The notes beneath the pieces were generated by a model. The model did no database searches. It was not told the DNA's origin and was given only the letters and a program-made list of their open reading frames with translations. Shown here one piece after another: positions 10,286-33,391 of a DNA stretch of 64,000 nt (position 1 is its first letter; every line of letters begins with the position of its first letter). A program made the position numbers and the translations under genes. The stretch lies in IMG/VR virus record IMGVR_UViG_3300031687_001264; one strand, given 5' to 3'. This DNA is from a virus (lineage: Duplodnaviria; Heunggongvirae; Uroviricota; Caudoviricetes).

Positions 10286-10335
10286 GATAAGTGGTCGACG
10301 ATTCACAAAATTCGCAGTTACTAATGGAGATTAAA

Positions 10336-11550: not shown

Positions 11551-11595
11551 TAAGCAACCCTAAATAATAGTAAATTAACTAAGGAATATAATTAT

Positions 11596-17186: not shown

Positions 17187-17835
17187 TAACTGGTTTAATA
17201 ACCATATCTCATTAGGTGGCAGTGTTCATATAGTACATGACACTGTTTCACTTATCGGTTCGCCCAAACCATATCTAACTGATATCTATGATAGATTCTC
17301 AAAACTAACATTCGAAGATGTAGAGCATTTCATGGGCTCTCGTATCTTAGACAATTCAATGCCCAATCGTGCATTGATCGAAGATGCAACTAAGTTGTAT
17401 TATCTAGAAGAACAAATCAAACAAGACAAACTAATATTCAAACCGCAACTATTACACGAACCTTGGGCAGATAGATATCGTGTTCATCCTGGTTCGGGTC
17501 GTATCGCAGCAATGTGGAAATGTGATCCCATAAAACCTATAGAAAGCATCTATATTCACTTCAATGAAGACATATTTACTATCCCTCAGAATAGCACCGA
17601 AGTGAGGTCCTCAGAGGCTTTCTTAGACGCAATCACGTATAAGGCGACTAATAGCATAGATTGTACAGTGGAACCAGCGTTAAAACGTACGGAACGAGAC
17701 ACCGAATGGAATCCAACAATAGTAAGTACCGTAAATTGGGAATTCATTCGTTATAGTGAAGGGAAATATTTCTTGGAATATAAGCAAGCATGGCGTGACT
17801 ACGCACTCGACTTATGGTTACTACTTAATCGCTAG
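17152..17835 (+). CDS. hypothetical protein
   Basis: ORF only. Confidence 0.4.
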   Translation: MLSSQNNFSIINNWFNNHISLGGSVHIVHDTVSLIGSPKPYLTDIYDRFSKLTFEDVEHFMGSRILDNSMPNRALIEDATKLYYLEEQIKQDKLIFKPQLLHEPWADRYRVHPGSGRIAAMWKCDPIKPIESIYIHFNEDIFTIPQNSTEVRSSEAFLDAITYKATNSIDCTVEPALKRTERDTEWNPTIVSTVNWEFIRYSEGKYFLEYKQAWRDYALDLWLLLNR

Positions 17836-18525
17836 ATTAGATCTAACCCAGTCATGCATTTCAGGCGTGTTATGCGCATTGATAACTAACCAATAACTAT
17901 CTTTAGTACTTGCATTAAATAATGCATGCTCTAATGTAGTGTTCACTGCATATAGTTGGCCCATTTCAAAATAAAGCGGCTTATCTTCTAACATAAATCT
18001 AAACCACGGATTTGTAGTATTAGATAACGCCATTATTAATCTAAACGTATCCACATTTTCACCACGACTATCTCGATGTGGTGGGAAATAACCGCCTGGC
18101 GATACTCTCAATATATGCGTTCTACCACATAAATGTAATATATCACCAAGTAACTCTTTCATTGAAGTGAGATCATACACAGGGGTAGTTTTATCAAAAT
18201 CTTTTTCACTGTAATCTGTATTATATTTTCTATTCCATTCATACAGACTATTCAATGCGGGACCAGATTGATTTAAACCACTTTCATTTATTACACATAG
18301 ACCGTCTCGCTTAATATGTGGTTTAAATTCATTGTATTGTTCCCATTTATCGTCAAACTGTGATAGTTCTTCCATAAATCTGCTAGTATTAATACTCTTA
18401 TCTAATAAGATTTGATTTCCTAAATTAAAAATTACAGACATATAACTATTCCTTAAAAGATGTATCGCCGGGAAACAATGGTAATTGTGTACCTGGCGCA
18501 CGCTTAGGTATCTTACTATCTGCAC
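17821..18525 (-). CDS. Asp/Asn beta-hydroxylase-family 2OG-Fe(II) oxygenase
   Basis: PGGYFPPHRDSRGE ... TLEHALFN ... LVINAH. An HxD...H facial triad with spacing typical of the AspH/LpxO family. Confidence 0.5.
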   Translation of the reverse strand: MQIVRYLSVRQVHNYHCFPAIHLLRNSYMSVIFNLGNQILLDKSINTSRFMEELSQFDDKWEQYNEFKPHIKRDGLCVINESGLNQSGPALNSLYEWNRKYNTDYSEKDFDKTTPVYDLTSMKELLGDILHLCGRTHILRVSPGGYFPPHRDSRGENVDTFRLIMALSNTTNPWFRFMLEDKPLYFEMGQLYAVNTTLEHALFNASTKDSYWLVINAHNTPEMHDWVRSNLAIK

Positions 18526-19663
18526 TACTCACGCACGCATTAGTCGTACATACTGTGGGTGCATCAAATAACTTGAAACCTGTTTCTATATTTCCTAACG
18601 GCTGATCTACGCAACTATAACTACGCTTCACACTACCATCTGGTTCTCTGATAATAATACTACGATGACCAGATGAACATTCCCAGCCCTTGAATTTATT
18701 AAAACCAAATGCGTTGAATCGTTCAGCCTGATCCATGAACCAATGCTTGTTATCTTTATCCATGAACTCAACTTGAAAATGCTGAGGCACTGTTACATTC
18801 TCTTCCCAATACAACGGATCCCCATCTTTCTTAAATGTAGGTGTCGGGCGTGTAACCAACTGAGTCTTTTTCGCTTTATCTTCTGTATAACCACGCTGTG
18901 GCATACCGTTGTGTAATCGCTCCATCTGCTCTGCGGTGTAACCATCTACTATCTTACTAGCAGTAGGATCAGACATAGGCTTTAATGTACAGTTGATTCC
19001 CTGATTATGAAAGAATAACGCATTATCCCAATCTCGCTCAAACCATTCTGGAACCATCACTTGATTGATAGTTACTTGTACATCATGTTCTTGACAGAAT
19101 ATTAACTTATCAGCAAAGACTTGCATCTTTTCTCTAGTGTCTAAATGCTCTGTGTGCAAACTTGCTGTAATACTTGCTCTATGAAATGGTGCGACATTCT
19201 TAACATAAGTCTCAAACCACTTCATGGGACGTGACATATTAGTTGTCATGTGAACTGATGTGTAATTAGTGTTATCTACATCATCTGCAAGGTGTTTCAT
19301 TATATCCAAATATCCCGGATGGAATGTTGGTTCACCCCCGCTTAAACTAAAGTGAAAACTATTGAAACCATTGTCTCGTGCTTGACGCTTAATCTCGTCA
19401 ACTGTACGTAAACATAACTCAGTAGGTCTAAAGTCTTTCTTATCACTACGAGCGTAAGGCCAGCAGTAACTACAACGATAGTTACAATAGCGTCCCAGTA
19501 ACCAACTAATACTGAATAAATCGCGATGAAGCATTGTGCGTTGCCCTACTCTTACTAAATCATCAAATGGTATTTTAGTAAAATCGTATGTACTGTATTT
19601 TAAATCTTCGCTCATTTTAGATGCACCATGAAATCTTTTTATCGCCATAATATTCTCTAGCAA
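18446..19663 (-). CDS. radical SAM enzyme with C-terminal SPASM/twitch domain (canonical order)
   Basis: CNYRCSYC, SGGEP and C-terminal C...DGSV...C..PLGNI...C..C. Confidence 0.75.
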   Translation of the reverse strand: MLENIMAIKRFHGASKMSEDLKYSTYDFTKIPFDDLVRVGQRTMLHRDLFSISWLLGRYCNYRCSYCWPYARSDKKDFRPTELCLRTVDEIKRQARDNGFNSFHFSLSGGEPTFHPGYLDIMKHLADDVDNTNYTSVHMTTNMSRPMKWFETYVKNVAPFHRASITASLHTEHLDTREKMQVFADKLIFCQEHDVQVTINQVMVPEWFERDWDNALFFHNQGINCTLKPMSDPTASKIVDGYTAEQMERLHNGMPQRGYTEDKAKKTQLVTRPTPTFKKDGDPLYWEENVTVPQHFQVEFMDKDNKHWFMDQAERFNAFGFNKFKGWECSSGHRSIIIREPDGSVKRSYSCVDQPLGNIETGFKLFDAPTVCTTNACVSSADSKIPKRAPGTQLPLFPGDTSFKE

Positions 19664-20054
19664 AGCCTTCTGCTATGAGCATGTGTCTTAAACTCTTGCC
19701 ATCTATAATGATATCACCAAGTACTCGACCACCATACTTGTCCCATTTATAAATGGCTACTTGTATAACCGTTGCTGCATTTAACATATCTTTAGTAAAC
19801 TGTGACGCTTCTTCACCCCATGCTGCTTCTTTAGGACATTCTGCTCTCCAACTTTTTTCTGGAGTATCTACACCATATACACGAATACTTAATTCCTGCT
19901 TCAATGGTGCTGGTAAAAAGGTAGCTTCAAATGCAACGGTGTCGCCATCAATCACTCTTGTAATCTTATAATCGTAGATGGTCATCTCTACTTCTTTTGC
20001 CATTGCTGGCATTGTTGATAGTATTGCAATTAATAAAATTATAATCGTTCTCAT
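19617..20054 (-). CDS. secreted thermonuclease (SNase-like)
   Basis: Signal peptide plus VIDGDT, RVYGVDTPE and DKYGGRVLGD. Confidence 0.7.
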   Translation of the reverse strand: MRTIIILLIAILSTMPAMAKEVEMTIYDYKITRVIDGDTVAFEATFLPAPLKQELSIRVYGVDTPEKSWRAECPKEAAWGEEASQFTKDMLNAATVIQVAIYKWDKYGGRVLGDIIIDGKSLRHMLIAEGFAREYYGDKKISWCI

Positions 20055-20989
20055 GCTGTCTCTCCGTTAATGTAGTATTTATTATAAAGTATATCGTATG
20101 CGTCTACGACCTGTTTGTAACGCCTACCATATATCTGTGCTGCTTCTTTTAATATATCACTGTTACTTACACCTAAGTAATCAAGTATAACATCTGTATT
20201 TTTAAACCATTCAACGTCTGCTACTAAATGATCAATTTTATCTTCTTCTATATAGGATAATGACTCATTTTGAACAAACACATCTTCGTAATCGTGTTTT
20301 TCTTCAAATAGCCTATGGAACGAATACTCAAATTCAAAAATACCATCACCAGTGTTATCGTCTATGTGACTTAGCGATTTCTTCAAATCCCAATGTGCAA
20401 AATTTAATTGCCACATATATTTCAACTTACCATCGTGAAAATCCTCTATACATTTGTCGTGATAATCTCTATACCAAACTTCTTTCCATTTGCCAATAAT
20501 ATCTCCGTCCATTAGCATGTGATCTTCCCACCACAACTGCGTTTGTTCAATTATCTCATCTTCTGTTAATTCAATAAATGCATATTGCGTTATATAGAAC
20601 ATTGCACTTTGTTCGGTTGTGACTTGGGTGAATATGAGTTTGTCAGCAATTGGTGCGAACCTTGAATCATATGTAGCACCGAAATAATTACTCCACACTT
20701 TATATTGAAAATCTTCATTAAATTTAAAATATTCGGAAAGGCAATCAATCCCACCATCTGTTTCTGTTTTATTTTCCATCATTCTAAGCGTTTCTTGATG
20801 ACTATAATATAAATCTTGATCAATAAGATGGGTATATCGGTTCTCTTCAACTATGGTTCCAATTGCTAGTCGTTCAGGTGTTGGCTTTAATCCAGAATAG
20901 ATTTGAGGACCAAATCTATGATCTTGTGCAAGCCACCAATGAATCGCAGGTGCATGTGCATTTACTACTTGATATATTCCGATGTTCAT
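20051..20989 (-). CDS. hypothetical acidic protein
   Basis: ORF translationally coupled to the upstream 38-aa ORF. Confidence 0.5.
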   Translation of the reverse strand: MNIGIYQVVNAHAPAIHWWLAQDHRFGPQIYSGLKPTPERLAIGTIVEENRYTHLIDQDLYYSHQETLRMMENKTETDGGIDCLSEYFKFNEDFQYKVWSNYFGATYDSRFAPIADKLIFTQVTTEQSAMFYITQYAFIELTEDEIIEQTQLWWEDHMLMDGDIIGKWKEVWYRDYHDKCIEDFHDGKLKYMWQLNFAHWDLKKSLSHIDDNTGDGIFEFEYSFHRLFEEKHDYEDVFVQNESLSYIEEDKIDHLVADVEWFKNTDVILDYLGVSNSDILKEAAQIYGRRYKQVVDAYDILYNKYYINGETA

Positions 20990-21102
20990 AGTGCAAGGTA
21001 ATTAGGCATAGCCATGATAGGCGATGATGTTAAAATTATAGCCAATGTGACTGACGCCACTTTAGCCAATAGCACTACTGCTTGCTTAATATATATTTTC
21101 AT
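20986..21102 (-). CDS. 38-aa hydrophobic peptide (MKIYIKQAVVLLAKVASVTLAIILTSSPIMAMPNYLAL)
   Basis: Not in the ORF track. RBS aaggaa 6 nt upstream. Stop overlaps the next gene's ATG (ATGA). Confidence 0.4.
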   Translation of the reverse strand: MKIYIKQAVVLLAKVASVTLAIILTSSPIMAMPNYLAL

Positions 21103-21111
21103 AATTATTCC

Positions 21112-21762
21112 TTAATTTTTTGAACGGTTAATCCATTCTTCATCTGTCACTTGTATAGGATCAATACTTAATTCATTCAATGACAGATGTTCAGGCAATA
21201 TCATCGCATATTCAATACAATCTACCGCTTCTTCAAATGTCATCAACTTGCGTCCTGGATGCTTGTCTGCGTTATTCGGCAATGTACCAAACGTAACATA
21301 ACTCACCTTTGGGCCACCTTGCCAGATACTTTTCAATCCCATAGCGTTACTCGCACTACGTAATGCTTTCTTCTCTTGTTGATATGTCCAATCCGACCCT
21401 TTTGTAGCCCTGTCCGTGGTGGACCCGACAGACACTATATGTAGGGATTTCCGGGCACTCTGTGCGGTTTTATATACTACATCTAGTAGCAGTGCCTGAT
21501 GGTACTGCCATAGTGCACTACAGTTAATAAAAATGTCGTATTCTAGTGCTTTATTTGCAACAGTTTTTTTCACATGATTCAATGTTAGATCATGGTCACT
21601 GATGCTTTGACTAATAAAATCTGTCTGTGGATATCGTTTTAATATCTCACTCGCTAGACCAATCTCTGGATTACCTGTACATAATATTTTCTTATTAGTT
21701 AAATCAATCACTTTACTTTCCTTTTTACTACTGGACGCAACGTCCATATTTCTTTTGTACAT
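21112..21762 (-). CDS. short-chain dehydrogenase/reductase-like
   Basis: Rossmann motif CTGNPEIGLA and YQQEK (YxxxK). Confidence 0.45.
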   Translation of the reverse strand: MYKRNMDVASSSKKESKVIDLTNKKILCTGNPEIGLASEILKRYPQTDFISQSISDHDLTLNHVKKTVANKALEYDIFINCSALWQYHQALLLDVVYKTAQSARKSLHIVSVGSTTDRATKGSDWTYQQEKKALRSASNAMGLKSIWQGGPKVSYVTFGTLPNNADKHPGRKLMTFEEAVDCIEYAMILPEHLSLNELSIDPIQVTDEEWINRSKN

Positions 21763-21813
21763 CGGTGTGGCATATCGTCAACGTAGGTACCACAATATGG
21801 GCATAGAATCTGA

Positions 21814-23076
21814 TTAGTTATTGTCATTGATTTGTCCTTTAAATTCTGGACATGATTCTACTAACGTACCACGTTGCAATTCATCCATCTTCAAATTATA
21901 ATCAATAAATTCTTGCCAGTGTTCAGCATGTGTATTCCCAGCATTTAAATACTTAATCACATCGTCTACCTTAGGCCATGCTTTATGACTTTTTAAATTA
22001 TACAATGCCAACGTCTTTAAATGATGTGGCAATACTTGTATATTCATACTACGCGGATGGTTTAATATATTGAAATATAACTGATCATGTTCTAATCCAC
22101 GTGATTCCGCAAACTCGATAACCTCGTGTAGTGCACATACATTCAATGCTTGTACCGTACAATGAATCTGAATATATACATTATCCAATTTAGATAATTC
22201 ATCAAAATTCTTTTCTACTATATGCCAATGACTAGGGTAACGAATATATCTGTCACGCGCACCAATTGCATCAATTGAGCAATTTAATTGTACACGCTTG
22301 AAATGTGACCAATATTCGATCATCTTCGGTGGCACATTAGTTAGGTTGGTGTTGTACTTTAAACGAATGCCCGATGCAAGATCATTTTCAATACAATAGT
22401 CTAACAACTTATATTGACTAACTGCCAATGTAGGCTCACCACCAGTTAAATAAATTTCTTCAACCGTATGAGCAATTTCAGTGAATGTAATACCTGTCTT
22501 TTCCCAATCTGGCCATTCAGTCATGGTATTCATGAATTCTAATGTGTCTTCATCCAATTTCTTTGGTGGATCTAAATATGCTGCATCAACTACTTTATTC
22601 CAATCTTTAACCCACATGCTACTTGCCCACGGATTACACATGCGACATTTTAGGTTACATAAGTTACCCAAGCGTAAGTCAACATATTTCACATCAACTG
22701 GAATTTCAACATCTATCTTCACATCTTCTTTCAGCCACTTTTCATTAAATCCTGCTCGCGCACTACGAATGCCAGCATCTTCTTCTCTGAAACAACGCGC
22801 ACACATATCTGGTCGCTCACCATCGATGAACTGTTTTCTGATAGTTGTATAGGTTGGGCTATTCCATACTTCATCTAAATCATGCTTGTAGATTTTATAT
22901 GGCTTGCCATTCTCTTGTAATATTGTGTTCTCACCGGGCGTGCTATTACAGCATACTCGATAAGATCCCGCAGCATTAGTTGCTACGTGCATAAAGGGTA
23001 AAACACAGAACGTGTCACTTACTTTTTTTGTCATTGGTTTAAATCCATTTTGTATAATCTTTGCCATCACTATCAT
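21814..23076 (-). CDS. radical SAM enzyme with N-terminal SPASM-like Cys domain (paralog 1)
   Basis: FCVLPFMH...RVCC...CARC, then CNLKCRMC and LTGGEP. Confidence 0.7.
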   Translation of the reverse strand: MIVMAKIIQNGFKPMTKKVSDTFCVLPFMHVATNAAGSYRVCCNSTPGENTILQENGKPYKIYKHDLDEVWNSPTYTTIRKQFIDGERPDMCARCFREEDAGIRSARAGFNEKWLKEDVKIDVEIPVDVKYVDLRLGNLCNLKCRMCNPWASSMWVKDWNKVVDAAYLDPPKKLDEDTLEFMNTMTEWPDWEKTGITFTEIAHTVEEIYLTGGEPTLAVSQYKLLDYCIENDLASGIRLKYNTNLTNVPPKMIEYWSHFKRVQLNCSIDAIGARDRYIRYPSHWHIVEKNFDELSKLDNVYIQIHCTVQALNVCALHEVIEFAESRGLEHDQLYFNILNHPRSMNIQVLPHHLKTLALYNLKSHKAWPKVDDVIKYLNAGNTHAEHWQEFIDYNLKMDELQRGTLVESCPEFKGQINDNN

Positions 23077-23971
23077 CTAGTATCATTACATGATCAATCA
23101 ATTGTTGTTTATTATCTTGATCATCCAATGCACCCGGAGCCATGTATGCGGGACTAATCAAATCACTCGCTCTATTGAAGTGAATATCGTGACTTGTCGC
23201 CCAATCATTCACTTCGTGAATGTTATTAATATTTAGTACACTTGGTAAACACGTAATACATATACTCGTATTATCAGGTGAACTCTTGTGTATGTCAATG
23301 ATATTATTACTTACTTGTTCCCAGTTTGCTCCTCGTCTAAGGTATTCAAAACGCTCACCTATGGCATCTACACTTGCAACTATTATAACACGTTTAAACG
23401 ATTCGAACAAGGGATAATATGCATTAATATCTATTGTTCCATTAGTAATGAATTGTAATTCAATCGTAGATGAAACGTCTGCATCGATCAGATATTTAAT
23501 TATCTTCTTTACTTGTGGTATCATGAATGGTTCACCACCTGTAAATTTAAGAATCTTTGCAAAATGCAATTGTGGGTATATCTGCTCAATATCTTTGTGC
23601 CAACCTGTATTTGCTTTGCGCTTACCAGTTTTTACTGCCCACGAACTTGAACTATAACTATCACATGAGACGCACGTGAGATTACACGTGTTGTTAATCT
23701 TTAAGTCCCATTGCTCTGTGCCAATGCTATCTGCTAGTACATCATTCATATACATTCGATAACTCTTACCATTTGATTCTTCATCTTGTTGGCACTCTAT
23801 GCATTCAGGCAACCAACCTCGCAATGACTCAACATAGTATTTGTTGTGCAACGATTCCCAATCATCGGTAATTGCAACACCAGATGATGCCGCATTCCAA
23901 GCACAGCATGGTCTAACTTCGCCTGTTACGCCTATCGTTACTGCATGTTTAAACGCCAAGCATTTTGGCAT
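23039..23971 (-). CDS. radical SAM enzyme with N-terminal SPASM-like Cys domain (paralog 2)
   Basis: CLAFKH...RPCC...PECIEC, then CNLTCVSC and FTGGEP. Confidence 0.7.
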   Translation of the reverse strand: MPKCLAFKHAVTIGVTGEVRPCCAWNAASSGVAITDDWESLHNKYYVESLRGWLPECIECQQDEESNGKSYRMYMNDVLADSIGTEQWDLKINNTCNLTCVSCDSYSSSSWAVKTGKRKANTGWHKDIEQIYPQLHFAKILKFTGGEPFMIPQVKKIIKYLIDADVSSTIELQFITNGTIDINAYYPLFESFKRVIIVASVDAIGERFEYLRRGANWEQVSNNIIDIHKSSPDNTSICITCLPSVLNINNIHEVNDWATSHDIHFNRASDLISPAYMAPGALDDQDNKQQLIDHVMILDDSDGKDYTKWI

Positions 23972-24704: not shown

Positions 24705-24714
24705 AATTTATCTC

Positions 24715-26274: not shown

Positions 26275-26304
26275 TTTTCGTCCTTATCGTCTGATTTCAT
26301 ATGT

Positions 26305-26640
26305 TCATTTATTCCCACAAAAATAGGAACAAACTGTTGGTGGATTATCACTATCAAATCCTTCATCCCATAGATATGTCCAAAATAAATTATGCTTCGT
26401 TACATTTTCGACTCCATGTACTACAGCATTATTCCAATCAGGATCTTCTTCATTAAGTTTATCCAATACGGTATCAGTAAGATCAACATGACTATTGGAA
26501 GACTTTTTTAGTTCAGTAGCATAATAACAACATGGCCAGACCCTGCCCGCTACAGTTATCTCAAATTGGCGCTTCACTTTATCGTCTTTTGTCTCACATG
26601 CGACTATACACTCAATGTTATTTTTATTAGATTCCTTCAT
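26305..26640 (-). CDS. stand-alone SPASM/twitch-like Cys-rich protein
   Basis: CIVAC...GRVWPCC...VCSYFC. Same pattern as the N-terminal domains of the paralogs. Confidence 0.5.
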   Translation of the reverse strand: MKESNKNNIECIVACETKDDKVKRQFEITVAGRVWPCCYYATELKKSSNSHVDLTDTVLDKLNEEDPDWNNAVVHGVENVTKHNLFWTYLWDEGFDSDNPPTVCSYFCGNK

Positions 26641-27325
26641 ACCGTACTCCTAGATTTTGAAATCGCTGCTTTAATTCTTCTATTACGTGATGCTCGTCGC
26701 GTTCACGCAAACGCATTGCATATTCAAGATCTACTATAAAATTCATCTCGATATCAAGTTCACCTGCGTGTAAATATGCTTCTTCTATTTGATGTATATT
26801 CCATTCAAATAATATAAACTGCCATCGCGTCTCACCATCATTATCATTAAACGCTCGCATATTGGCATATGCCTTATCAAATACTACACCCTCTCTATAT
26901 TTCCAATTAGTATCATGATCTAATCCATCAATACCAAATATAATACTCAGTCTTCCAGAATATTTTTTAGCAATTGTTGCATACCAATTAGCATTTCTAA
27001 GACCTCCATTGGTACTTATAATCATAGATACATCTTTATCTTCATCTGCTAACACATATTCCATCATTTCATTAATATGCGGATTCATCATGGGATCACC
27101 ATATTGTCCACATAACTTAACATATCGTACTTTATTAGATACATTATATTCGCTGGAAAAAATCATTTTAAATGTTTCAAGCGACATATGCTCTTGTACT
27201 AACCAATCAACAGGTTCACCAGTATCAGGATTAGTACGTGGACACCGTCTACATCTTGCATTGCAATATGTAGTTATTTCCATTTCCACTTTATGAGCGT
27301 CTACATCGTCGTACTTATATATCAT
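26627..27325 (-). CDS. short radical SAM enzyme (core only)
   Basis: CNARCRRC at residues 20-27. 232 aa with no auxiliary Cys domain. Confidence 0.65.
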   Translation of the reverse strand: MIYKYDDVDAHKVEMEITTYCNARCRRCPRTNPDTGEPVDWLVQEHMSLETFKMIFSSEYNVSNKVRYVKLCGQYGDPMMNPHINEMMEYVLADEDKDVSMIISTNGGLRNANWYATIAKKYSGRLSIIFGIDGLDHDTNWKYREGVVFDKAYANMRAFNDNDGETRWQFILFEWNIHQIEEAYLHAGELDIEMNFIVDLEYAMRLRERDEHHVIEELKQRFQNLGVRYEGI

Positions 27326-28541
27326 TATTGATGTCTATTAAAAAATCAGTAAGTGGCATATCAAGATATTGTTCTATCATCTCACTTAATTTAATCTTAG
27401 GATTGTATCTATTTTCTAAATCACGTGTGTACTTACGCATCTTAGTATATTGTATATAATCTCGTTGATTATTTTCCATATAAGTAGCAAATGTATCCAT
27501 CTCTGGATGTTCTTTTTCATGCTTTCGTAATTTATTAATAATAGCCGATCTATAAGGCTCAGGCCATATCGCTGGGCTTAGTATCTTTGGTGTATGTAAT
27601 ATGTTAGCAGTAATGAATGTCAATTCAATGTCACTCTGCTTCCAGTATTCATAAAATTCTGGCATCTGAAATATATTATGTGCTTGTATAGTAATACCCA
27701 ATGCTAAGTCTATATGCTCTATGTCATTCAATACACTCAGATTAGATTCTACTGTACTCCAATCACCACCTTCACGAATGTAATCATAAACATCATTGAC
27801 ACCATCAAGTGATACTTTGATATTAACATGCTTGAATTGACTCCAAATTTCTAGCAAATTATATTTTTTAAATGTTAGATGACTCAGATTAGTAGCATAT
27901 CGCAATTTGATCGTAGATCGTAGATGCTCTGGTATCGATTCAAGTAAGTCGTAATGCTCTTGATTAATGATAGGTTCGCCACCAGTGAATTGTAATACTT
28001 TAACTGTATCCCAGAACCCATCCCATTTGCCTATGCTATCAAACAACGTAGTTGGTCGTAGGAGACGTGTTTCGTGATGCTCTGTACCCATATACTTCTC
28101 AATGATGTCTAAGTCCTGTACGCGCTTGTACGAACTATGTGTACTACACATAATACATTTCAAATTACAGAAGTTAGAAACCTTCAACTCTATCCACAAT
28201 GGTGGATTATCTACAGAGTAATCATCATTGAGTTTGATCAAGTCTTTATAATTATCCCAATCATCGTCAAACCATTGCTGTCTATTTGATACAACACCAC
28301 TTGCTTCATTATGCCAACATACATCACACTCTGATGGTATCTCATTGCTAGTGAGTGCCCTACGAAGTTCTTTGTAGTTGTCATTATTCCATGTGTCTTC
28401 AATAGCAGCACCCGGCTCATTGAAAATCTTAGTTTGTGCTTCACAGCAAGGTACTATATCGCCGCCCGCTGATCCGTAAGTATGCATGAATGGTATCATA
28501 CAAAATGATGTTGTTTTTGCTAGTTCATTAATATCTTTCAT
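27315..28541 (-). CDS. radical SAM enzyme with N-terminal SPASM-like Cys domain (paralog 3)
   Basis: FCMIPFMH...IVPCC...SECDVC, then CNLKCIMC and FTGGEP. Confidence 0.7.
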   Translation of the reverse strand: MKDINELAKTTSFCMIPFMHTYGSAGGDIVPCCEAQTKIFNEPGAAIEDTWNNDNYKELRRALTSNEIPSECDVCWHNEASGVVSNRQQWFDDDWDNYKDLIKLNDDYSVDNPPLWIELKVSNFCNLKCIMCSTHSSYKRVQDLDIIEKYMGTEHHETRLLRPTTLFDSIGKWDGFWDTVKVLQFTGGEPIINQEHYDLLESIPEHLRSTIKLRYATNLSHLTFKKYNLLEIWSQFKHVNIKVSLDGVNDVYDYIREGGDWSTVESNLSVLNDIEHIDLALGITIQAHNIFQMPEFYEYWKQSDIELTFITANILHTPKILSPAIWPEPYRSAIINKLRKHEKEHPEMDTFATYMENNQRDYIQYTKMRKYTRDLENRYNPKIKLSEMIEQYLDMPLTDFLIDINNDI

Positions 28542-29661
28542 TTAATAATTTCTTATATCCTTGTATATATTCTTCTGCATCATTATTACGTAAATCAAAC
28601 AATTCGTGCATTTGATCTAAATAAATTTCACTATTATCTGGTGCGTTATTTGTTTTACATAATGAAATTAATAATGTATATGCTTTCTTTAATTTCCAGT
28701 GACAGTCTTTGTATTGCTCTTCTACTATCGCTCTCAAATTATTCTTATATGTATCTGTCTGATGCGCAATACTCAACCAATCAGGCTCATGTATAGTCTG
28801 TAACATTACTGGTACACCTATCTCAAATCTTGCCCATCTCATTAGATCTATTAACACTGGTGCATTTAATACACCAACTGTGCAAGCGACAAATACTTCT
28901 ACCTTGTCGTATTTAGTTCCCAATTCTGTCCATTGCTTCAGTACAGATTCAATAGCAGGGAATTTGGATGGGTGACGTAATATATCGTTTAATTCGCCAA
29001 CTGCATCTATACTATTCGTAATTCGCAAGTTATTGAATTCTAATAGATAATCTAAGTTCATCTTCGCTGGCCAGTATGTGCAATTCGTAAATATCTCAAT
29101 ATCGATCTGAGGTGCAATACCACTATCTACCAATCGTTTAATGAATCGTAAAAACTGCTTATGCATGAACGGCTCACCACCTGTCACTTTCATATATTTC
29201 AAATGAGATAGTTGATCCATGGATAGTGCATCTAAATCATATTCTCTATTCTTTGCAAAATGTTCTAATACTTCAACCATCACTAAATCAATCGCTAGTG
29301 CGTCTTTATCCCATGTATGACTATACTCAGGTCCGCAACCAACACATGCAAGATTACATAGATTGCCCACTGTAATCTCTAGATATTCTAATTGGATTGA
29401 ATCTGTGAAATCATCAAAGAATTCGTCTGCTTCTGTTCGCATACTAGTAAGACCAGTATCTTCATCGGCTTTGCATTTCCAGCAACCCTCATGCCATTCG
29501 TTCCTTAACATCGTCTCGCGAATATCTTTAAACACATACTTGTTATCATCATCAGATAAGTAACGATCATGAAATTTACAACATGGTGTAGCGGGAGTAC
29601 CGTTTGCAAGCATTGCTGCTTTGAACGGATATGCACAAGCGTTACTCGGCAAATTTGCCAT
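28528..29661 (-). CDS. radical SAM enzyme with N-terminal SPASM-like Cys domain (paralog 4)
   Basis: CAYPF...TPCC...EGCWKC, then CNLACVGC and VTGGEP. Confidence 0.7.
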   Translation of the reverse strand: MANLPSNACAYPFKAAMLANGTPATPCCKFHDRYLSDDDNKYVFKDIRETMLRNEWHEGCWKCKADEDTGLTSMRTEADEFFDDFTDSIQLEYLEITVGNLCNLACVGCGPEYSHTWDKDALAIDLVMVEVLEHFAKNREYDLDALSMDQLSHLKYMKVTGGEPFMHKQFLRFIKRLVDSGIAPQIDIEIFTNCTYWPAKMNLDYLLEFNNLRITNSIDAVGELNDILRHPSKFPAIESVLKQWTELGTKYDKVEVFVACTVGVLNAPVLIDLMRWARFEIGVPVMLQTIHEPDWLSIAHQTDTYKNNLRAIVEEQYKDCHWKLKKAYTLLISLCKTNNAPDNSEIYLDQMHELFDLRNNDAEEYIQGYKKLLNERY

Positions 29662-30559
29662 TATTTTTATACCTCTTTAGTGCTTTCGCTAAGTTGATGC
29701 GATTGTATGCGCGATCACGATGGAACATATCCCATTCTGGTGTATCAGGTGCTTGGGCAATATGTATCGTATTAGTCTCTTGCAATCCATAATGTTCACA
29801 TACAATTTTATGTGCTTCTCTATATTTGTTAGGCATAGTATCTGGGCTGAACTTTTTCATTAACGCATTAGACAATGCTACATTCAAATGAATACCGTGA
29901 TTCCATTCTGTCTGCACTCGCATACCACAACGCTCTTCATCTAAACGACTGAACACAATACCAGCACGCCAGTTACCACCACTTAATCCTTTACCAGTGC
30001 TGAATGCAACCATCTTAATACAATCATGTGACAAATCAACATCAATATCAAAACAAGTTCCAAACCATGCACAATCTACCAGAATAGGAATATTCTTTGC
30101 TGTACACTCTTCAATCAACCAATCCCATCGCTCGTGCTTGCGTCCGTTACCACTGAATGGAATACTAACGATAACCGCATCACCTACGGATAACCCAGTA
30201 TCGTCAATGCTATCTGACCAATTCATTTCTGGTCCCAACCATACATCACGGTTATACGGATATTCACCACGGAACACCTTTAAGTTCTGTCCAGTAGCGA
30301 TGCACCAATACTGCCACCATTCTAATGCTTGTGTAGTACCTAAACTAACATAACGATCAGGATATGTATCTAACCCAGTAAAGTTATTTAATTTGCTGCT
30401 TTGTATCCATTTGGGATATAATTCTAAGAATTCTGCTGGTGCTGTACCCACTTCTGCCAAATTCATATTTGGCAATACTTCATCTTGTATATAGTCAATA
30501 AATGGTTGATTCCAAATACTGTTGCCTGTCTTACCGAAATCTGGGTTGTTACTCATCAT
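29642..30559 (-). CDS. PLP-dependent aminotransferase-like (DegT/ArnB-like fold)
   Basis: ILVDCAWFG ... AFSTGKGLSGGNWRAGIV resembles the DegT active-site lysine region. Confidence 0.4.
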   Translation of the reverse strand: MMSNNPDFGKTGNSIWNQPFIDYIQDEVLPNMNLAEVGTAPAEFLELYPKWIQSSKLNNFTGLDTYPDRYVSLGTTQALEWWQYWCIATGQNLKVFRGEYPYNRDVWLGPEMNWSDSIDDTGLSVGDAVIVSIPFSGNGRKHERWDWLIEECTAKNIPILVDCAWFGTCFDIDVDLSHDCIKMVAFSTGKGLSGGNWRAGIVFSRLDEERCGMRVQTEWNHGIHLNVALSNALMKKFSPDTMPNKYREAHKIVCEHYGLQETNTIHIAQAPDTPEWDMFHRDRAYNRINLAKALKRYKNNGKFAE

Positions 30560-30819
30560 GTATTCCTTGTTAGTCCTAGTGCTATTGCATTATCAAATGT
30601 AATAGGATGTGCGCTTACAACGAGCATAAAGAAATCTCTCGCTTCATCGTAATCATTAAATATAGATTCAAATACTATTTCACTTGTTGTACCACTAAGT
30701 GTAACACTATATTTGTCTGTAATTGTTTCATCCGAATATGTGAGTATAACTAAATCGTTATTAGCACCCATATTGTCTTTGAAGTCTTCTGTCGTTTTTA
30801 TATATTGTCGTTTTATCAT
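30556..30819 (-). CDS. hypothetical small protein
   Basis: ORF coupled to neighbours. Confidence 0.4.
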   Translation of the reverse strand: MIKRQYIKTTEDFKDNMGANNDLVILTYSDETITDKYSVTLSGTTSEIVFESIFNDYDEARDFFMLVVSAHPITFDNAIALGLTRNT

Positions 30820-31070
30820 TATAAATATGCCATCTTTAATAAAAATATTTCTTCATCTGGTAGGTCAACTAGAGTAACCCATTCATTGAATGTATAATTA
30901 ATTCCATCAATCCACCATGCAGCGTGACCATCAGGCCATATAACCGCAGGTCCAATCTCATTATGCCATATACACTCATCGTCGTATATGTAGCCGCAAT
31001 ATTCTCTATGATGTACGATCACGATACCATCGTTTGTTACTACAAATGTGCAAGTTGCACTATCTGACAT
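30819..31070 (-). CDS. MORN-like small protein with C-terminal DEEIFLLKMAYL tail
   Basis: Paralogous to 1786..2178. Confidence 0.45.
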   Translation of the reverse strand: MSDSATCTFVVTNDGIVIVHHREYCGYIYDDECIWHNEIGPAVIWPDGHAAWWIDGINYTFNEWVTLVDLPDEEIFLLKMAYL

Positions 31071-32310
31071 AACTCTCGATTTCTGGTATATACTGCAATG
31101 TTTCTGTTTTTCGTAATCTATCTAAATCGTCAGTGTACCTTAGAAACCAATTCCATTGCTTATCAGATTCTTGATCATCTTCGTTTGATAACATTAACCC
31201 ATTACGAATGGATTCAATACCTGTCTGATATCCACCTTCATCTGAGTTTGCACTAGTAAGTGGCCACATTTCTAAATTAGGGATATGCTTTATTTTATCA
31301 TACGCCAATGCTTTCAACTCTTCTGGCATATTTCCTATATTCAAATAGCCAGGATGAACTACCACGTTACTCATCGAAATACTTGCACGATGCGCATGAT
31401 GGGTAGCAAACCATTCCCAGACTTTATCTAAATTAAATATATTGGTAATCATTACCGTAACAGCAAACACTACCTCTACATTTGGGATATCGTAGAATTT
31501 TTCTATGTTCTCGTTCAATTGATCCCATGTGTAACTAGGACCGCCACGAATAATACTATATAATTCATCAGTTGCTTCTACACTAATTAATAATTCTACA
31601 TGCTTAAAGTGACTGAATAATTCTCTAAATTCTTCTTTGAATACGGTTGCATTTGTACTGATGTCTAATGATACGCTACTTGCAATACCATTGTCTACAA
31701 ACCATTGCAATACTGATAAACAGATTTCATCATACAACGGCTCACCACCACGCAGTGCCACCCATTGCAGATTGCGAAAATACTCTGGATTCTTAAATAG
31801 ATTATCCATGAAGTCTATACTTGCACCATGATAACCTATTGGCTGTTTACTCCAATATTCTGGCTTTTCTCTATTAAGAGATTTACCATCTTTAGTCCAG
31901 CCTGTACTTACGAACGGATCACAATGAATACATGCTAGATTACATTTATTACTAAGAGTAAAATCAAGATACCTAATATCAGGAACAGAATCTACTGTAA
32001 GATCTTTACTCGCAACCTTTGTTTCATGATCAATTCTATCCCAGAAATATAAACGACGACTGCGCCCAACTTTCTCTTTCTTCACGCAACCCTGACATGA
32101 TTCTGGAATCTCACGCTTACGATGTGATTCTCTCAATTCAGTGTATGCATCTCCCTCTAGTATTTCACGCAATGATTGCTTACCAATATTACCTAATTTA
32201 CCTTTATAGATAATGTCTGGGATGACGTTACCACCCCATTTAACAGTTAATGCGTGCCAAGGTGCTAAACAGGTAGGTAGATCTTTTCTATTTACGAATG
32301 TGTTTTTCAT
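31060..32310 (-). CDS. radical SAM enzyme with N-terminal SPASM-like Cys domain (paralog 5, divergent)
   Basis: CLAPWH...ESCQGC, then CNLACIHC and LRGGEP. The CC pair is absent. Confidence 0.65.
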   Translation of the reverse strand: MKNTFVNRKDLPTCLAPWHALTVKWGGNVIPDIIYKGKLGNIGKQSLREILEGDAYTELRESHRKREIPESCQGCVKKEKVGRSRRLYFWDRIDHETKVASKDLTVDSVPDIRYLDFTLSNKCNLACIHCDPFVSTGWTKDGKSLNREKPEYWSKQPIGYHGASIDFMDNLFKNPEYFRNLQWVALRGGEPLYDEICLSVLQWFVDNGIASSVSLDISTNATVFKEEFRELFSHFKHVELLISVEATDELYSIIRGGPSYTWDQLNENIEKFYDIPNVEVVFAVTVMITNIFNLDKVWEWFATHHAHRASISMSNVVVHPGYLNIGNMPEELKALAYDKIKHIPNLEMWPLTSANSDEGGYQTGIESIRNGLMLSNEDDQESDKQWNWFLRYTDDLDRLRKTETLQYIPEIESYVR

Positions 32311-33072
32311 TTAATTTATAGAACCTATGTTACGCCTGTTTATTTCCTTTAATTTTTCATAAGATATACGTGCTGCTGTTTCTATGTTAATCTCACAATC
32401 ATCTAATACAGTATTATACGTTAATTTTTTATAAACGTCATATGTACTATTATAATACTCAAACAGCAAATTATAGTCAGCGCCAATCTTTGCGGCTTCA
32501 TACAAAGTTTCTACAGCATCTATTACTAGGCATTCACCTATGTATTGTGAATCGTGAATTTGACCAAGAATGCAATCATCCCAATCAATAATAATCCAAT
32601 CACCAATATCAAACTGCAATATATTACTACGTCCGCCGTCAACATTACAATAAGGAAATATCTTCAGATTTGTTTCTATATATTTTGGAAATACGTGTTT
32701 ATTATACATATCCATATCGTTGTATATTGAGGATAATGGGTTAGAGTCATTCTCCAACCAAGATAAATTTTTGTCTAATTCAAACCCGTAAGGAACTCTT
32801 GTCATTTTATACTTAATAAAAGAATTTGAGTTTGACTCATTACCATTCCAAGAATAATCTAGTCTTTCAATAATTTCCCAATCATCATGTATTAGTTTTT
32901 TAGGGTGTAATGAATTTATTAGATCAATTTGTCCTTGAATACATTCTTCATCAATAGCTGGTATTATTTTTACAATAAAATTACCATCGTCATATGCCCA
33001 CCTTGGCATATGACATGATCTCTCATTAGGATCACCGGGTTCGAACTTATCTGGCATTAATTTCTTATACAT
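32311..33072 (-). CDS. hypothetical protein
   Basis: ORF only. Confidence 0.45.
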   Translation of the reverse strand: MYKKLMPDKFEPGDPNERSCHMPRWAYDDGNFIVKIIPAIDEECIQGQIDLINSLHPKKLIHDDWEIIERLDYSWNGNESNSNSFIKYKMTRVPYGFELDKNLSWLENDSNPLSSIYNDMDMYNKHVFPKYIETNLKIFPYCNVDGGRSNILQFDIGDWIIIDWDDCILGQIHDSQYIGECLVIDAVETLYEAAKIGADYNLLFEYYNSTYDVYKKLTYNTVLDDCEINIETAARISYEKLKEINRRNIGSIN

Positions 33073-33074
33073 TA

Positions 33075-33305
33075 TTAAAACAGTTCTCTTAATAATTTCT
33101 CTTCTGCTTTCTTCTTTGTACGACGATTTACGTCTGCTGCTGCAATTTCTCGCTGCATGTAATCTTCAAACATATTTTTCAGTTCATTCTCTTCTAAATT
33201 CACAATCTGTGATTTAATTGAAGATAACACTTTTGTTACACTCATATCTGTACTTTTATTAATCTCATCTTGGATGATATTTGTTACTACGTCTGCATTA
33301 ATCAT
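33075..33305 (-). CDS. hypothetical small coiled-coil protein, first gene of the island
   Basis: RBS agggga. Promoter lies upstream. Confidence 0.45.
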   Translation of the reverse strand: MINADVVTNIIQDEINKSTDMSVTKVLSSIKSQIVNLEENELKNMFEDYMQREIAAADVNRRTKKKAEEKLLRELF

Positions 33306-33357
33306 GGTAATCCCCTATAAGTTTTATATATATGTATGTATTATAACATTGATACTA

Positions 33358-33386
33358 TTATATACTATGTTTATATGTTCTGTCAA
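33358..33386 (-). promoter_or_regulatory. sigma70-type promoter reading into the radical-SAM island
   Basis: Minus strand cTTGACAgaacatataaacatagTATATA in the 86-bp gap upstream of 33305. Confidence 0.45.
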
Positions 33387-33391
33387 GGTAT

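What the first reader, a model, noticed from the sequence alone, without database searches (positions are those of the whole stretch)
17821..33391. 15.5-kb phage island with seven radical-SAM enzymes, two 2OG oxygenases and PLP/SDR enzymes
The window's richest region is a single co-directional minus-strand block of about 19 genes. Genes are tightly coupled, most with overlapping stop and start codons, and the block begins at a sigma70-type promoter at 33358..33386.

Seven ORFs carry both CxxxCxxC and a GGEP-type SAM motif: 18446, 21814, 23039, 26627, 27315, 28528 and 31060. Two more are Asp/Asn beta-hydroxylase-family oxygenases. The block also has a DegT-like PLP enzyme, an SDR, a secreted SNase homologue, a 519-aa unknown and a 38-aa peptide.

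Seven radical-SAM genes in one phage operon is unusual. SPASM-type radical-SAM enzymes and AspH-family hydroxylases usually modify peptides or proteins. That suggests a RiPP-like or virion or host-protein modification pathway. The PLP and SDR enzymes also allow a small-molecule route, such as nucleotide or sugar hypermodification. I could not place the system in a known pathway.
Basis: partly seen in the sequence, partly recalled or inferred. Interest (0 to 1): 0.95.

Follow-up and report, generated by a model that had tools for sequence, protein, structure and literature searches.

The report
Radical-SAM-rich modification operon in marine jumbo phage
A marine jumbo phage carries a tightly packed 20-gene operon with seven iron-sulfur "radical SAM" enzymes plus hydroxylases, a sugar-transferase/methyltransferase-like protein and helper enzymes; the same uncharacterised toolkit recurs in many ocean phages and in predatory Bdellovibrio-type bacteria, and most likely builds or decorates an unusual sugar-bearing molecule.

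Summary
A single minus-strand operon (17821-33305) follows a perfect sigma70 promoter. It encodes seven radical SAM enzymes, two AspH-type Fe/2OG oxygenases, an SDR, a PLP enzyme and a secreted nuclease.

Refinements:
- Five rSAMs belong to NCBIfam NF033640, the N-terminal twitch family, not canonical SPASM. I found no characterised member.
- One rSAM is split into a core (g12) and a stand-alone twitch protein (g11).
- The PLP enzyme resembles class I/II aminotransferases, not DegT.
- The 519-aa unknown folds as a GT-A-like domain plus a class-I methyltransferase. Its family is repeatedly fused to AspH domains.

The 12-gene core is syntenic in many marine viral contigs, which carry a median of 6 and up to 12 rSAM genes per ~20 kb. 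It also occurs on Bdellovibrionota chromosomes, where N-twitch rSAM pairs sit in operons with GT2 glycosyltransferases. No conserved precursor peptide or RRE was found. The phage also encodes IscS, IscU and an FNR-like reductase nearby.

Best reading (confidence about 0.4): a radical-SAM-driven glycoconjugate or sugar-tailoring pathway whose target is unknown. RiPP or protein modification and small-molecule routes remain open. Two papers mention such rSAM cassettes without assigning a function.

The parts
33357..33386 (-). Sigma70-type promoter TTGACA-18-TATAAT heading the operon
   Evidence: 12/12 consensus match and the only perfect match in 17000-34600. The sequence was read directly, with an AGGGGA ribosome-binding site before the first ATG. 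Function not tested.
33075..33305 (-). g20, 76-aa ORF of unknown function; not conserved in related loci
   Evidence: No Pfam hit. No blastp homologue in 164 related loci.
32311..33072 (-). g19, 253-aa unknown, lineage-restricted. K35...D145xxxxN150...D163-W-D-D resembles a small kinase-like signature; this is inference only.
   Evidence: Only 13 homologues among 5.8 billion proteins. Invariant residues come from alignment A8. No Pfam, PHROG or PDB match.
31060..32310 (-). g18, N-terminal-twitch radical SAM enzyme (416 aa). Its orthogroup has only 3 N-terminal Cys.
   Evidence: NF033640 252.8 bits (cut-off 170) and SPASM 41.6 bits at residues 14-75. CNLACIHC and GGEPL motifs. C14, C72 and C75 are invariant and the CC pair is absent. 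Orthologues are 63-68% identical in syntenic loci.
30556..31070 (-). g17 (83 aa, 30819-31070) and g16 (87 aa, 30556-30819): variable small ORFs inserted between conserved genes
   Evidence: No homologues in related loci. In L008, L009 and L021 the flanking genes abut directly.
29642..30556 (-). g15, short (304 aa) fold-type-I PLP-dependent enzyme, aminotransferase class I/II-like
   Evidence: The profile of 28 orthologues hits aminotransferase 3if2 (E=0.0024) across the PLP-Lys segment. S186, K189 and D161 are invariant. No DegT Pfam hit. Conserved next to N-twitch rSAMs in 21 viral and 14 bacterial loci.
28528..29661 (-). g14, N-terminal-twitch radical SAM enzyme (377 aa)
   Evidence: NF033640 226 bits. 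Radical_SAM 29.5 bits. The C..CC..CxxC pattern plus the CX3CX2C triad are invariant.
27315..28541 (-). g13, N-terminal-twitch radical SAM enzyme (408 aa)
   Evidence: NF033640 313 bits. SPASM at residues 14-76 and Radical_SAM 41 bits. Cys pattern invariant.
26627..27325 (-). g12, radical SAM core (232 aa) lacking its own auxiliary-cluster domain
   Evidence: Radical_SAM 31 bits. Single-chain homologues of 330-365 aa cover g12 and then g11 in that order.
26305..26640 (-). g11, 111-aa Cys-rich stand-alone twitch-like partner of g12 (split enzyme)
   Evidence: Weak SPASM hit. It aligns to the C-terminal 80-90 residues of the single-chain homologues. The split is conserved in L007, L040, L034 and L018. 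Conserved Cys are C11, C37, C38, C104 and C108.
24715..26274 (-). g10, 519-aa two-domain protein: N-terminal GT-A-like domain plus C-terminal class-I SAM methyltransferase-like domain
23949..24704 (-). g09, AspH-family Fe(II)/2OG oxygenase (251 aa), always adjacent to g10
   Evidence: Asp_Arg_Hydrox 44.2 bits. H166, D168 and H214 are invariant. Adjacent to g10 in all syntenic loci.
23039..23971 (-). g08, N-terminal-twitch radical SAM enzyme (310 aa, short C-terminus)
   Evidence: NF033640 186 bits. Radical_SAM 42 bits. Cys pattern invariant.
21814..23076 (-). g07, N-terminal-twitch radical SAM enzyme (420 aa)
21112..21747 (-). g06, short-chain dehydrogenase/reductase-like (211 aa)
   Evidence: The profile of 19 orthologues hits SDRs (farnesol dehydrogenase 7w61, E=2.6e-10). 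G25, N26, G30, Y122 and K126 are invariant.
20986..21102 (-). g05, 38-aa hydrophobic ORF; not conserved
   Evidence: Translation is hydrophobic and contains no Cys. No homologues in related loci.
20051..20989 (-). g04, 312-aa unknown; not conserved in related loci
   Evidence: No Pfam, PHROG or PDB hit. No homologue in the loci.
19617..20054 (-). g03, staphylococcal-nuclease homologue with N-terminal signal-like leader; probably a passenger gene
   Evidence: SNase 50.4 bits. Present in only 3 related loci, and in L007/L040 on the opposite strand outside the cassette.
18446..19648 (-). g02, radical SAM enzyme (400 aa) with a C-terminal 4-Cys auxiliary-cluster domain; the most conserved gene of the cassette
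   Evidence: Radical_SAM 50.3 bits. 70-78% identical in phage loci and 55-61% in bacterial loci. The triad plus C324, C346, C367 and C372 are invariant. No specific NCBIfam or PDB relative.
17821..18441 (-). g01, second AspH-like Fe(II)/2OG oxygenase (206 aa)
   Evidence: Asp_Arg_Hydrox 19.6 bits, below the cut-off. The HxD...H triad is conserved in the joint alignment. Orthologues are present in 15 viral and 3 bacterial loci.
10291..13058 (+). Probable support module outside the flagged range: IscS-like cysteine desulfurase (10291-11550), IscU scaffold (11596-11979), FNR-like flavin reductase (12276-13058)
   Evidence: Aminotran_5 283 bits and NifU_N 179 bits. NAD_binding_1/FAD_binding_6. The link to the operon is inferred. 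It is consistent with the co-occurrence of rSAM and Fe-S assembly genes in marine T4-like genomes (PMC5332604).

Best explanation
The block is one transcription unit encoding a conserved enzyme cassette. Its most likely job is to build or decorate a carbohydrate-bearing molecule by radical chemistry.

Seven radical SAM enzymes each pair the SAM-cleaving [4Fe-4S] cluster with one auxiliary-cluster (twitch-type) domain:
- five with the domain at the N-terminus;
- one with it at the C-terminus;
- one split into core plus separate twitch protein.

Inferred roles:
1. The rSAMs carry out successive C-H activations (oxidation, epimerisation, dehydration or C-C/C-X bond formation) on a sugar or sugar-amino-acid scaffold.
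2. The PLP enzyme and the SDR carry out the transamination and keto-reduction steps.
3. The two AspH-type oxygenases hydroxylate the scaffold or acceptor.
4. The GT-A-like/methyltransferase protein is physically fused to AspH in relatives. It acts on the hydroxylated product by transferring a group to it or methylating it.
5. The phage's own IscS, IscU and FNR-like reductase supply clusters and electrons.

Shown: the domain identities, the conservation and synteny of the cassette, the AspH fusions, and the glycosyltransferase neighbourhoods in bacteria.

Inferred: the carbohydrate nature of the substrate, the order of steps and the target. Candidate targets are a virion surface protein or glycan, or the host envelope.
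For: - Operon structure and promoter.
- Seven rSAMs with auxiliary-cluster Cys sets conserved within each orthogroup.
- The five N-twitch paralogues are only 23-28% identical to each other. Each has a 38-75% identical orthologue in the same order in L003, L007, L008, L009, L021 and L040. This points to old, specialised paralogues, that is, a multi-step pathway.
- g10 is GT-A-like plus a class-I MTase by structure.
- g10 is always next to AspH. Its family is fused to AspH in L067, L093 and L136, and in 6 of 50 superfamily members scanned; one member is fused to an rSAM.
- PLP and SDR assignments come from profiles. Both co-occur with the rSAMs in viral and bacterial loci.
- On Bdellovibrionales chromosomes a conserved operon reads unknown-GT2-GT2-NTwi-NTwi. 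A GT1/GT28 gene lies between N-twitch genes in L088. A NodU/CmcH carbamoyltransferase family co-occurs in 12 loci.
- Nearest solved folds of g07 include the sugar/nucleoside twitch enzymes BlsE (top hit) and AprD4.
- No conserved small ORF and no RRE domain.
- IscS, IscU and FNR are encoded 5-7 kb away.
- Pelagimyophage genomes carry rSAM cassettes beside glycosyltransferases in a variable host-recognition region (PMC7029224).
Against: - I found no functionally characterised member of NF033640, so the substrate class is guilt by association only.
- The PLP enzyme resembles amino-acid (class I/II) aminotransferases rather than DegT sugar aminotransferases.
- AspH-family enzymes typically hydroxylate protein or peptide residues, or lipid A (background knowledge).
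- The phage operon has no recognisable nucleotide-sugar synthase, flippase or polymerase.
- The operon lies beside replication genes, not tail-fibre genes.
Confidence: 0.4

Rival explanations
1. Protein or peptide (RiPP-like) maturation. The twitch rSAMs install cross-links, epimerisations or other C-H functionalisations on a phage or host protein. The AspH enzymes hydroxylate Asp/Asn residues. g10 then methylates or glycosylates the hydroxylated residue. The substrate is encoded elsewhere, for example a virion protein.
For: - NCBIfam secondary hits of the rSAMs are mostly to peptide maturases, though far below cut-offs.
- AspH family membership, including the triad.
- g10's GT-A-like domain resembles the protein-modifying transferases Fringe and collagen galactosyltransferase. 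The AspH-g10 fusions recall hydroxylase-glycosyltransferase pairs such as LH3.
- The PLP enzyme is closest to amino-acid aminotransferases.
Against: - No conserved small ORF in the cassette: g05, g16, g17 and g20 have no homologues in 164 related loci.
- No RRE/PqqD domain, leader peptidase or exporter turned up in the Pfam/NCBIfam scans.
- The bacterial neighbourhoods are rich in glycosyltransferases.
- The rSAMs carry twitch domains, not the SPASM domains typical of peptide maturases.
Confidence: 0.25
2. Biosynthesis of a diffusible small molecule made during infection, such as an aminoglycoside-, pseudo-sugar- or nucleoside-type compound. It would be used for host takeover or competition. 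Predatory Bdellovibrionota would share the pathway for the same reason.
For: - The enzyme palette matches aminoglycoside/nucleoside antibiotic clusters (background knowledge): twitch rSAMs, PLP aminotransferase, SDR, Fe/2OG oxygenases, methyltransferase, and in relatives carbamoyltransferase and glycosyltransferases.
- BlsE and AprD4 are among the top folds. A carbamoyltransferase family co-occurs.
- g02 is highly conserved at 70-78% identity, which suggests a universal small substrate.
- The distribution is restricted to two kinds of bacterial 'predators'.
Against: - No exporter, resistance or regulatory gene in the phage operon.
- No scaffold-forming enzyme was recognised, such as an inositol or 2-deoxy-scyllo-inosose synthase or a nucleotide-sugar synthase.
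- The GT2 pairs in the bacterial operons look more like polymer or glycoconjugate synthesis.
Confidence: 0.2
3. Hypermodification of the phage's own DNA, either base decoration comparable to the thymidine hypermodification pathways that use a PLP enzyme and an rSAM isomerase, or a 7-deazaguanine system.
For: - The operon lies next to the DNA ligase, DNA polymerase and PRPP synthetase genes.
- PLP plus rSAM plus transferase-like and methyltransferase folds are found in known DNA hypermodification clusters (background knowledge).
Against: - No dNMP hydroxymethylase, 5-hmdU DNA kinase, DpdA/TGT or QueC/D/FolE homologue was detected in the block. QueE-type hits are far below cut-off.
- The same toolkit sits among housekeeping genes on Bdellovibrionales chromosomes, in operons with GT2 enzymes.
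- Seven to twelve rSAMs far exceeds any described DNA-modification pathway.
Confidence: 0.07

Closest known systems
NCBIfam NF033640 'twitch domain-containing radical SAM protein' (N_Twi_rSAM)
   Same: Five ORFs (g07, g08, g13, g14, g18) score 186-375 bits over essentially the full model, against a cut-off of 170. They share the domain order of N-terminal Cys-rich twitch domain followed by the CX3CX2C core.
   Different: The family carries only a generic name. Neither the PDB sequence search nor the literature searches found a characterised member. Here five deeply diverged paralogues (23-28% identity) act together in one operon. One orthogroup (g18) has lost the CC pair.
Twitch-domain sugar/nucleoside radical SAM enzymes (BtrN, BlsE, AprD4)
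rSAM cassettes and Fe-S assembly genes reported in marine T4-like phage genomes (Nishimura 2017, PMC5332604; Zaragoza-Solas 2020, PMC7029224)
   Same: Multiple rSAM genes (up to 12) in marine myovirus genomes. They co-occur with IscU/ATC-type Fe-S assembly genes, glycosyltransferases and an AspH-family gene.
   Different: Those papers only list the genes. They describe no cassette architecture, family assignment or function. I did not test whether their genomes carry this exact syntenic module. The present phage is a Rak2/Atu_ph07-like jumbo relative: its DNA polymerase is 43-49% identical to theirs.
Hydroxylase-glycosyltransferase pairs acting on proteins (collagen LH3/ColGalT1)
   Different: The hydroxylase here is AspH-type, not lysyl-hydroxylase-type. 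The GT-A-like domain lacks a clear DxD and carries an extra methyltransferase domain. No collagen-like or EGF-like substrate was identified.
RiPP radical SAM/SPASM maturase clusters
   Same: Radical SAM enzymes with auxiliary clusters, encoded in an operon with tailoring oxygenases.
   Different: No precursor peptide, RRE, protease or transporter was found. The rSAMs have twitch rather than SPASM domains.

Membership tests
Radical SAM superfamily (PF04055) | CX3CX2C cluster motif plus a glycine-rich SAM-binding (GGE) motif and a partial TIM-barrel core | tested here: met
NF033640 N-terminal twitch radical SAM | Full-length match above the curated cut-off (170 bits), with the Cys-rich domain preceding the rSAM core | tested here: met
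   g07 375, g13 313, g18 253, g14 226 and g08 186 bits. g02 and g12 match only partially (about 42 bits) and are not members.
SPASM-domain radical SAM enzymes | C-terminal 7-Cys motif binding two auxiliary [4Fe-4S] clusters | tested here: not met
   The Pfam SPASM model matches only its first half, and at the N-terminus. Only 3-5 Cys are conserved per domain, enough for one cluster.
RiPP biosynthetic gene cluster | A precursor peptide gene conserved with the maturases | tested here: not met
   The small ORFs g05, g16, g17 and g20 have no homologue in 164 related loci. In L008, L009 and L021 the neighbouring enzymes abut without small ORFs. A substrate encoded elsewhere cannot be excluded.
RiPP biosynthetic gene cluster | RiPP recognition element (PqqD-like), leader peptidase or exporter | tested here: not met
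   No such Pfam or NCBIfam hit in any of the 20 ORFs.
AspH-type Fe(II)/2-oxoglutarate oxygenase (PF05118) | Cupin fold with the HxD/E...H iron triad | tested here: met
   g09 scores 44.2 bits, above the cut-off. g01 scores 19.6 bits, below it. H166, D168 and H214 are invariant across 28 sequences of both families.
Short-chain dehydrogenase/reductase | N-terminal glycine-rich dinucleotide motif and a catalytic YxxxK | tested here: met
   G25, N26, G30, Y122 and K126 are invariant. The profile hits SDR structures at E=2.6e-10. No Pfam hit for the single sequence.
DegT/DnrJ/EryC1 sugar aminotransferase (PF01041) | Match to the family model | tested here: not met
   No Pfam hit for g15. The profile's only PDB matches are class I/II aminotransferases and ACC synthase.
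Fold-type I PLP-dependent enzyme | Schiff-base lysine in an S-x-x-K context and the pyridine-N aspartate | tested here: inconclusive
   S186, K189 and D161 are invariant and align with the FSLSK and ID-x-A-Y motifs of aminotransferase 3if2, but the E-value is only 0.0024 over 90 residues. No structure model was made.
GT-A glycosyltransferase | GT-A Rossmann-like fold | tested here: met
GT-A glycosyltransferase | DxD metal/nucleotide-sugar binding motif | tested here: inconclusive
   Only one near-universal acidic residue, D87 in WFDG, at the end of strand 81-85. There is no second conserved Asp.
Class I SAM-dependent methyltransferase | Rossmann-like MTase fold with a glycine-rich motif I and an acidic residue after strand 2 | tested here: met
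7-deazaguanine / thymidine DNA hypermodification clusters | QueC/QueD/FolE/DpdA, or dNMP hydroxymethylase plus 5-hmdU DNA kinase | tested here: not met
   None was detected in the block. QueE models score 16-31 bits against cut-offs above 200. The rest of the genome beyond the window was not examined.

The most novel reading that the evidence does not exclude
The N-terminal-twitch radical SAM family is a functionally new class of enzymes. Working in sets of 5-12 specialised paralogues with AspH hydroxylases and a GT-A/methyltransferase protein, they would assemble a heavily C-H-functionalised glycoconjugate, or an entirely new type of modified biopolymer. Marine jumbo and T4-like phages and predatory Bdellovibrionota would both deploy it at the predator-prey interface, for example on virion or cell-surface decoration for recognition or evasion. 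The phage would bring its own Fe-S assembly line to power the pathway.
Probability: 0.3. Interest if true: 0.85.

Novelty: new variant of a known kind. Interest (0 to 1): 0.7.

Why it matters
Radical SAM enzymology advances mainly by finding families with new chemistry. Here a large family (NF033640) has no characterised member and no close solved structure. It appears in a conserved, compact and apparently abundant operon, which defines a tractable set of co-functioning partners.

For phage biology, this would be one of the most enzyme-dense auxiliary pathways known in a phage: up to fourteen predicted [4Fe-4S] sites (inferred from conserved Cys sets) plus the phage's own IscS/IscU. It implies a costly function that selection maintains across many ocean phages.

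The shared distribution with Bdellovibrionota raises a testable question about gene flow and common needs among bacterial predators. Identifying the product would show whether marine phages glycosylate or otherwise chemically armour their virions or remodel host surfaces. That bears on host range, superinfection exclusion and marine iron demand.

Tried and rejected
- Megablast of the whole block against 50,697 phage records found no match. tblastn of two rSAMs found only 21-30% identical hits in Vibrio (KVP40-like, K566) and Ralstonia jumbo phages. K566 has four distant N-twitch rSAMs but none of the partner genes.
- A single-protein pattern scan of IMG/VR with g10 found nothing. The alignment-based scan with g07 worked.
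- PHROGs gave no hit for any non-rSAM gene of the block.
- PDB sequence searches gave nothing useful for g10, g02, the g07 profile, g19 (single sequence and profile) or g04.
- The guess that g19 is kinase-like rests on a motif only and found no profile support.
- I tested whether two families that accompany the rSAMs in other loci are split versions of g10's two domains. These are c6 (DxD-containing) and c2 (weak spermine-synthase-like MTase motif). hhalign found no relationship, probability below 1%.
- A conserved 73-aa protein family (c12) occurs in 15 related loci and was considered as a possible precursor. It is absent from the window and is uniformly conserved along its length, so it does not rescue the RiPP model here.
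- Literature searches for N-terminal SPASM/twitch rSAMs, Bdellovibrio rSAM paralogues and phage-encoded SPASM enzymes returned nothing relevant.
- The AlphaFold database fold library was unavailable.
- No tRNA genes are present to hint at the host.

Full report
**What the window is**

The window comes from an uncultured marine jumbo phage. Its family-B DNA polymerase (40095-42737, minus strand) is 43-49% identical to those of Rak2/121Q-like, Atu_ph07, Phosso and Vibrio 2.275.O jumbo phages. The flagged block has no nucleotide-level match in 50,697 phage records. The identical region occurs on metagenome contigs in 41 blocks of the assembly index, the longest read being a 115-kb ENA contig (L001).

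**Check of the observation**

Twenty co-directional minus-strand ORFs run from 33305 down to 17821. Twelve of the 19 junctions overlap and the largest gap is 66 nt.

The operon starts 50 nt downstream of a perfect TTGACA-18-TATAAT promoter (33386..33357). This is the only 12/12 match in 17.6 kb and lies in the gap after the DNA ligase gene. The operon ends convergently against a plus-strand gene.

Six have GGEP and one has the variant GQYGDP.
- All seven hit Pfam Radical_SAM, and six reach the gathering score. The seventh is rescued by a 253-bit NCBIfam hit.
- Both AspH-like ORFs keep the invariant HxD...H triad, although one is below the Pfam cut-off.
- The SNase homologue is confirmed.
- The SDR and PLP assignments fail in Pfam. 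Profiles built from orthologues support them.

**Anatomy**

Five rSAMs (g07, g08, g13, g14, g18) are full-length members of NCBIfam NF033640, 'twitch domain-containing radical SAM protein' (186-375 bits, cut-off 170).

- Their Cys-rich domain is N-terminal. The Pfam SPASM model matches only its first half there.
- Four orthogroups keep an invariant C...CC...CxxC set. The g18 orthogroup keeps only three Cys. This is enough for one auxiliary cluster, so these are twitch enzymes, not SPASM enzymes.
- g02 is a different rSAM with four invariant C-terminal Cys.
- g12 is an rSAM core whose auxiliary domain is the separate 111-aa protein g11. Single-chain homologues of 330-365 aa cover g12 and then g11, and the split is conserved in four other loci.
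- The five N-twitch paralogues are only 23-28% identical to one another.

g10, the '519-aa unknown', gave a confident AlphaFold model (pLDDT 87.9).

- Viral GT25/Fringe-like proteins are the domain-level matches in BFVD.
- Only one acidic residue (D87) is conserved where a DxD would sit, so transferase activity is unproven.

g15 is a short fold-type-I PLP enzyme closest to class I/II aminotransferases, not DegT. g06 is an SDR with invariant Y122/K126. g04, g05, g16, g17, g19 and g20 have no assignable function.

**Conservation**

An alignment-based scan with g07 found at least 562 relatives in IMG/VR and 137 in GTDB genomes. I called ORFs in all 166 fetched loci and compared them.

A 12-gene core is syntenic in L003, L007, L008, L009, L021, L025 and L040. 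The order is:

NTwi(g18) - PLP - NTwi(g14) - NTwi(g13) - g10 (often two paralogues) - AspH - NTwi(g08) - NTwi(g07) - SDR - rSAM(g02), plus AspH2 and g12/g11.

- Each window protein has a 38-78% identical orthologue in these loci.
- g02 is the best conserved, at 70-78% in phages and 55-61% in bacteria.
- The small ORFs, g04 and g19 have no homologue in any of the 164 related loci, so they are lineage-specific insertions. The SNase recurs in only 3 loci and, in L007/L040, on the opposite strand outside the cassette.
- Related viral loci carry a median of 6 and up to 12 rSAM genes per ~20 kb, and 34 of 84 have seven or more. Seven is therefore typical for this group.

In cellular genomes the subfamily is found almost only in Bdellovibrionota MAGs, including 2.5-3 Mb contigs with several loci. 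There the rSAMs sit with the same PLP, AspH and SDR families among housekeeping genes such as EF-G, glutamate dehydrogenase and RlmN.

**Functional links**

- g10 and AspH are adjacent in every syntenic locus. They are fused in L067, L093 and L136.
- A full HMMER search shows the g10 superfamily is rare: 505 representative clusters among 1.84 billion.
- Of 50 members scanned, 6 carry an AspH domain, 1 an rSAM domain, and single members a Methyltransf_24, a GNAT or a RibD_C domain.
- In a conserved Bdellovibrionales operon, two N-twitch rSAMs directly follow two GT2 glycosyltransferases.
- A GT1/GT28 gene lies between N-twitch genes in L088.
- A NodU/CmcH carbamoyltransferase family co-occurs in 12 loci.

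**Structure of the rSAMs**

**Support genes**

Five to seven kb from the operon, the phage encodes three likely support genes on the plus strand:
- an IscS-like cysteine desulfurase (10291-11550);
- IscU (11596-11979);
- an FNR-like flavin reductase (12276-13058).

Seven two-cluster enzymes would need up to 14 [4Fe-4S] clusters, so a functional link is plausible but inferred. A homologue (77% identity) of another family that accompanies rSAM cassettes elsewhere lies at 635-1564.

**Interpretation**

The best-supported reading is a multi-step, radical-SAM-driven pathway that tailors and transfers or decorates a carbohydrate-bearing molecule. The support comes from:
- the GT-A-like/MTase protein coupled to AspH;
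- the PLP and SDR partners;
- the glycosyltransferase-rich bacterial neighbourhoods;
- the absence of any RiPP hallmark.

I put this at about 0.4, because every step from 'enzyme family' to 'substrate' is guilt by association.

A protein or peptide modification pathway with a distant substrate (about 0.25) is favoured by the AspH family's usual targets, the Fringe/collagen-GT-like fold and the amino-acid-type PLP enzyme. A diffusible aminoglycoside- or nucleoside-like metabolite (about 0.2) fits the enzyme palette and the 'predator' distribution, but the operon lacks export or resistance genes. DNA hypermodification (about 0.07) fits only the genomic position.

**Relation to what is known**

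The literature held here mentions such genes only in passing. One paper lists a marine T4-like genome with 12 rSAM genes and Fe-S assembly genes (PMC5332604). Another notes rSAM cassettes next to glycosyltransferases, and a core AspH gene, in pelagimyophages (PMC7029224). Neither gives a family assignment, cassette architecture or function. Other searches found nothing.

I therefore rate the finding as a real, conserved and uncharacterised system built from known superfamilies. It is a new variant of virus-encoded biosynthetic/modification cassettes, and it is of high interest to radical SAM enzymology and marine phage biology.

Noticed in passing
window 10291-13058 (+): The phage encodes an IscS-like cysteine desulfurase (Aminotran_5, 283 bits), IscU (NifU_N, 179 bits) and an FNR-like FAD/NAD reductase in a row, 5-7 kb from the rSAM operon. 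This would be a self-supplied Fe-S assembly and electron-donor set.
   Followed up: partly
window 635-1564 (+): This 309-aa ORF is 77% identical to a protein family (c13, 292 aa) that sits inside rSAM cassettes in 12 other loci. It contains HxD...H-like motifs suggestive of another oxygenase, but has no Pfam hit. Here it lies 16 kb away from the operon.
   Followed up: partly
window 26305-27325 (-): An rSAM enzyme is split into a core (g12) and a separate twitch protein (g11) with a 14-nt overlap. The same split is conserved in four other phage loci, whereas most homologues are single chains.
   Followed up: yes
L082, L127, L118, L009 (related loci): Some related loci carry 10-12 radical SAM genes in about 20 kb. 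These include a contig binned as Rickettsiales (L127) and one on a 1.27-Mb Parcubacteria contig (L118). The MAG assignments of the short contigs may be phage contamination.
   Followed up: no
L010, L013, L014, L017, L019, L023, L029, L082, L087, L127 and others: A strongly conserved 73-aa protein family (c12, consensus ...ATNNNI..FN.QAHHNSQNWY...YG.LPSK.GPGKD.KL) accompanies rSAM cassettes in 15 loci. It is absent from this window and its function is unknown.
   Followed up: partly
L020:8511-9995, L034:12305-14155: Some related cassettes also contain B12-binding-domain radical SAM enzymes (class B methylase-like), which this window lacks.
   Followed up: no
window 2441-3412 (+), 13085-13891 (-), 14556-15104 (+): Auxiliary genes near the operon: a PRPP synthetase, a class-3 lipase (the only minus-strand gene in the plus-strand block) and an HD-domain (HD_4) protein.
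   Followed up: no
window 56644-58920 (-) and 37220-38332 (-): A large AAA+ ATP-dependent protease-like protein (phrog_4871, E=8e-229) and a MoxR/AAA-type ATPase (phrog_1297) lie in the replication-side block.
   Followed up: no
window 34431-34709 (+): A lone plus-strand 92-aa ORF sits between minus-strand genes just upstream of the ligase. The source annotation gives a weak T5orf172 (GIY-YIG-like) hit, so it is possibly a homing-endonuclease remnant.
   Followed up: no
window ~17800: GC skew flips sign exactly at the convergent junction at the end of the operon, positive before about 18 kb and negative after. This tracks the switch in coding strand.
   Followed up: no
L107/L132/L137 (Bdellovibrionales) and L003 (Tara phage contig): A truncated class-II aminoacyl-tRNA-synthetase-like gene (tRNA-synt_2, D/K/N type) lies next to the rSAM/GT operon in the bacteria. 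A 276-aa version lies near the cassette in the phage contig. This could be an amino-acid-ligating partner.
   Followed up: no
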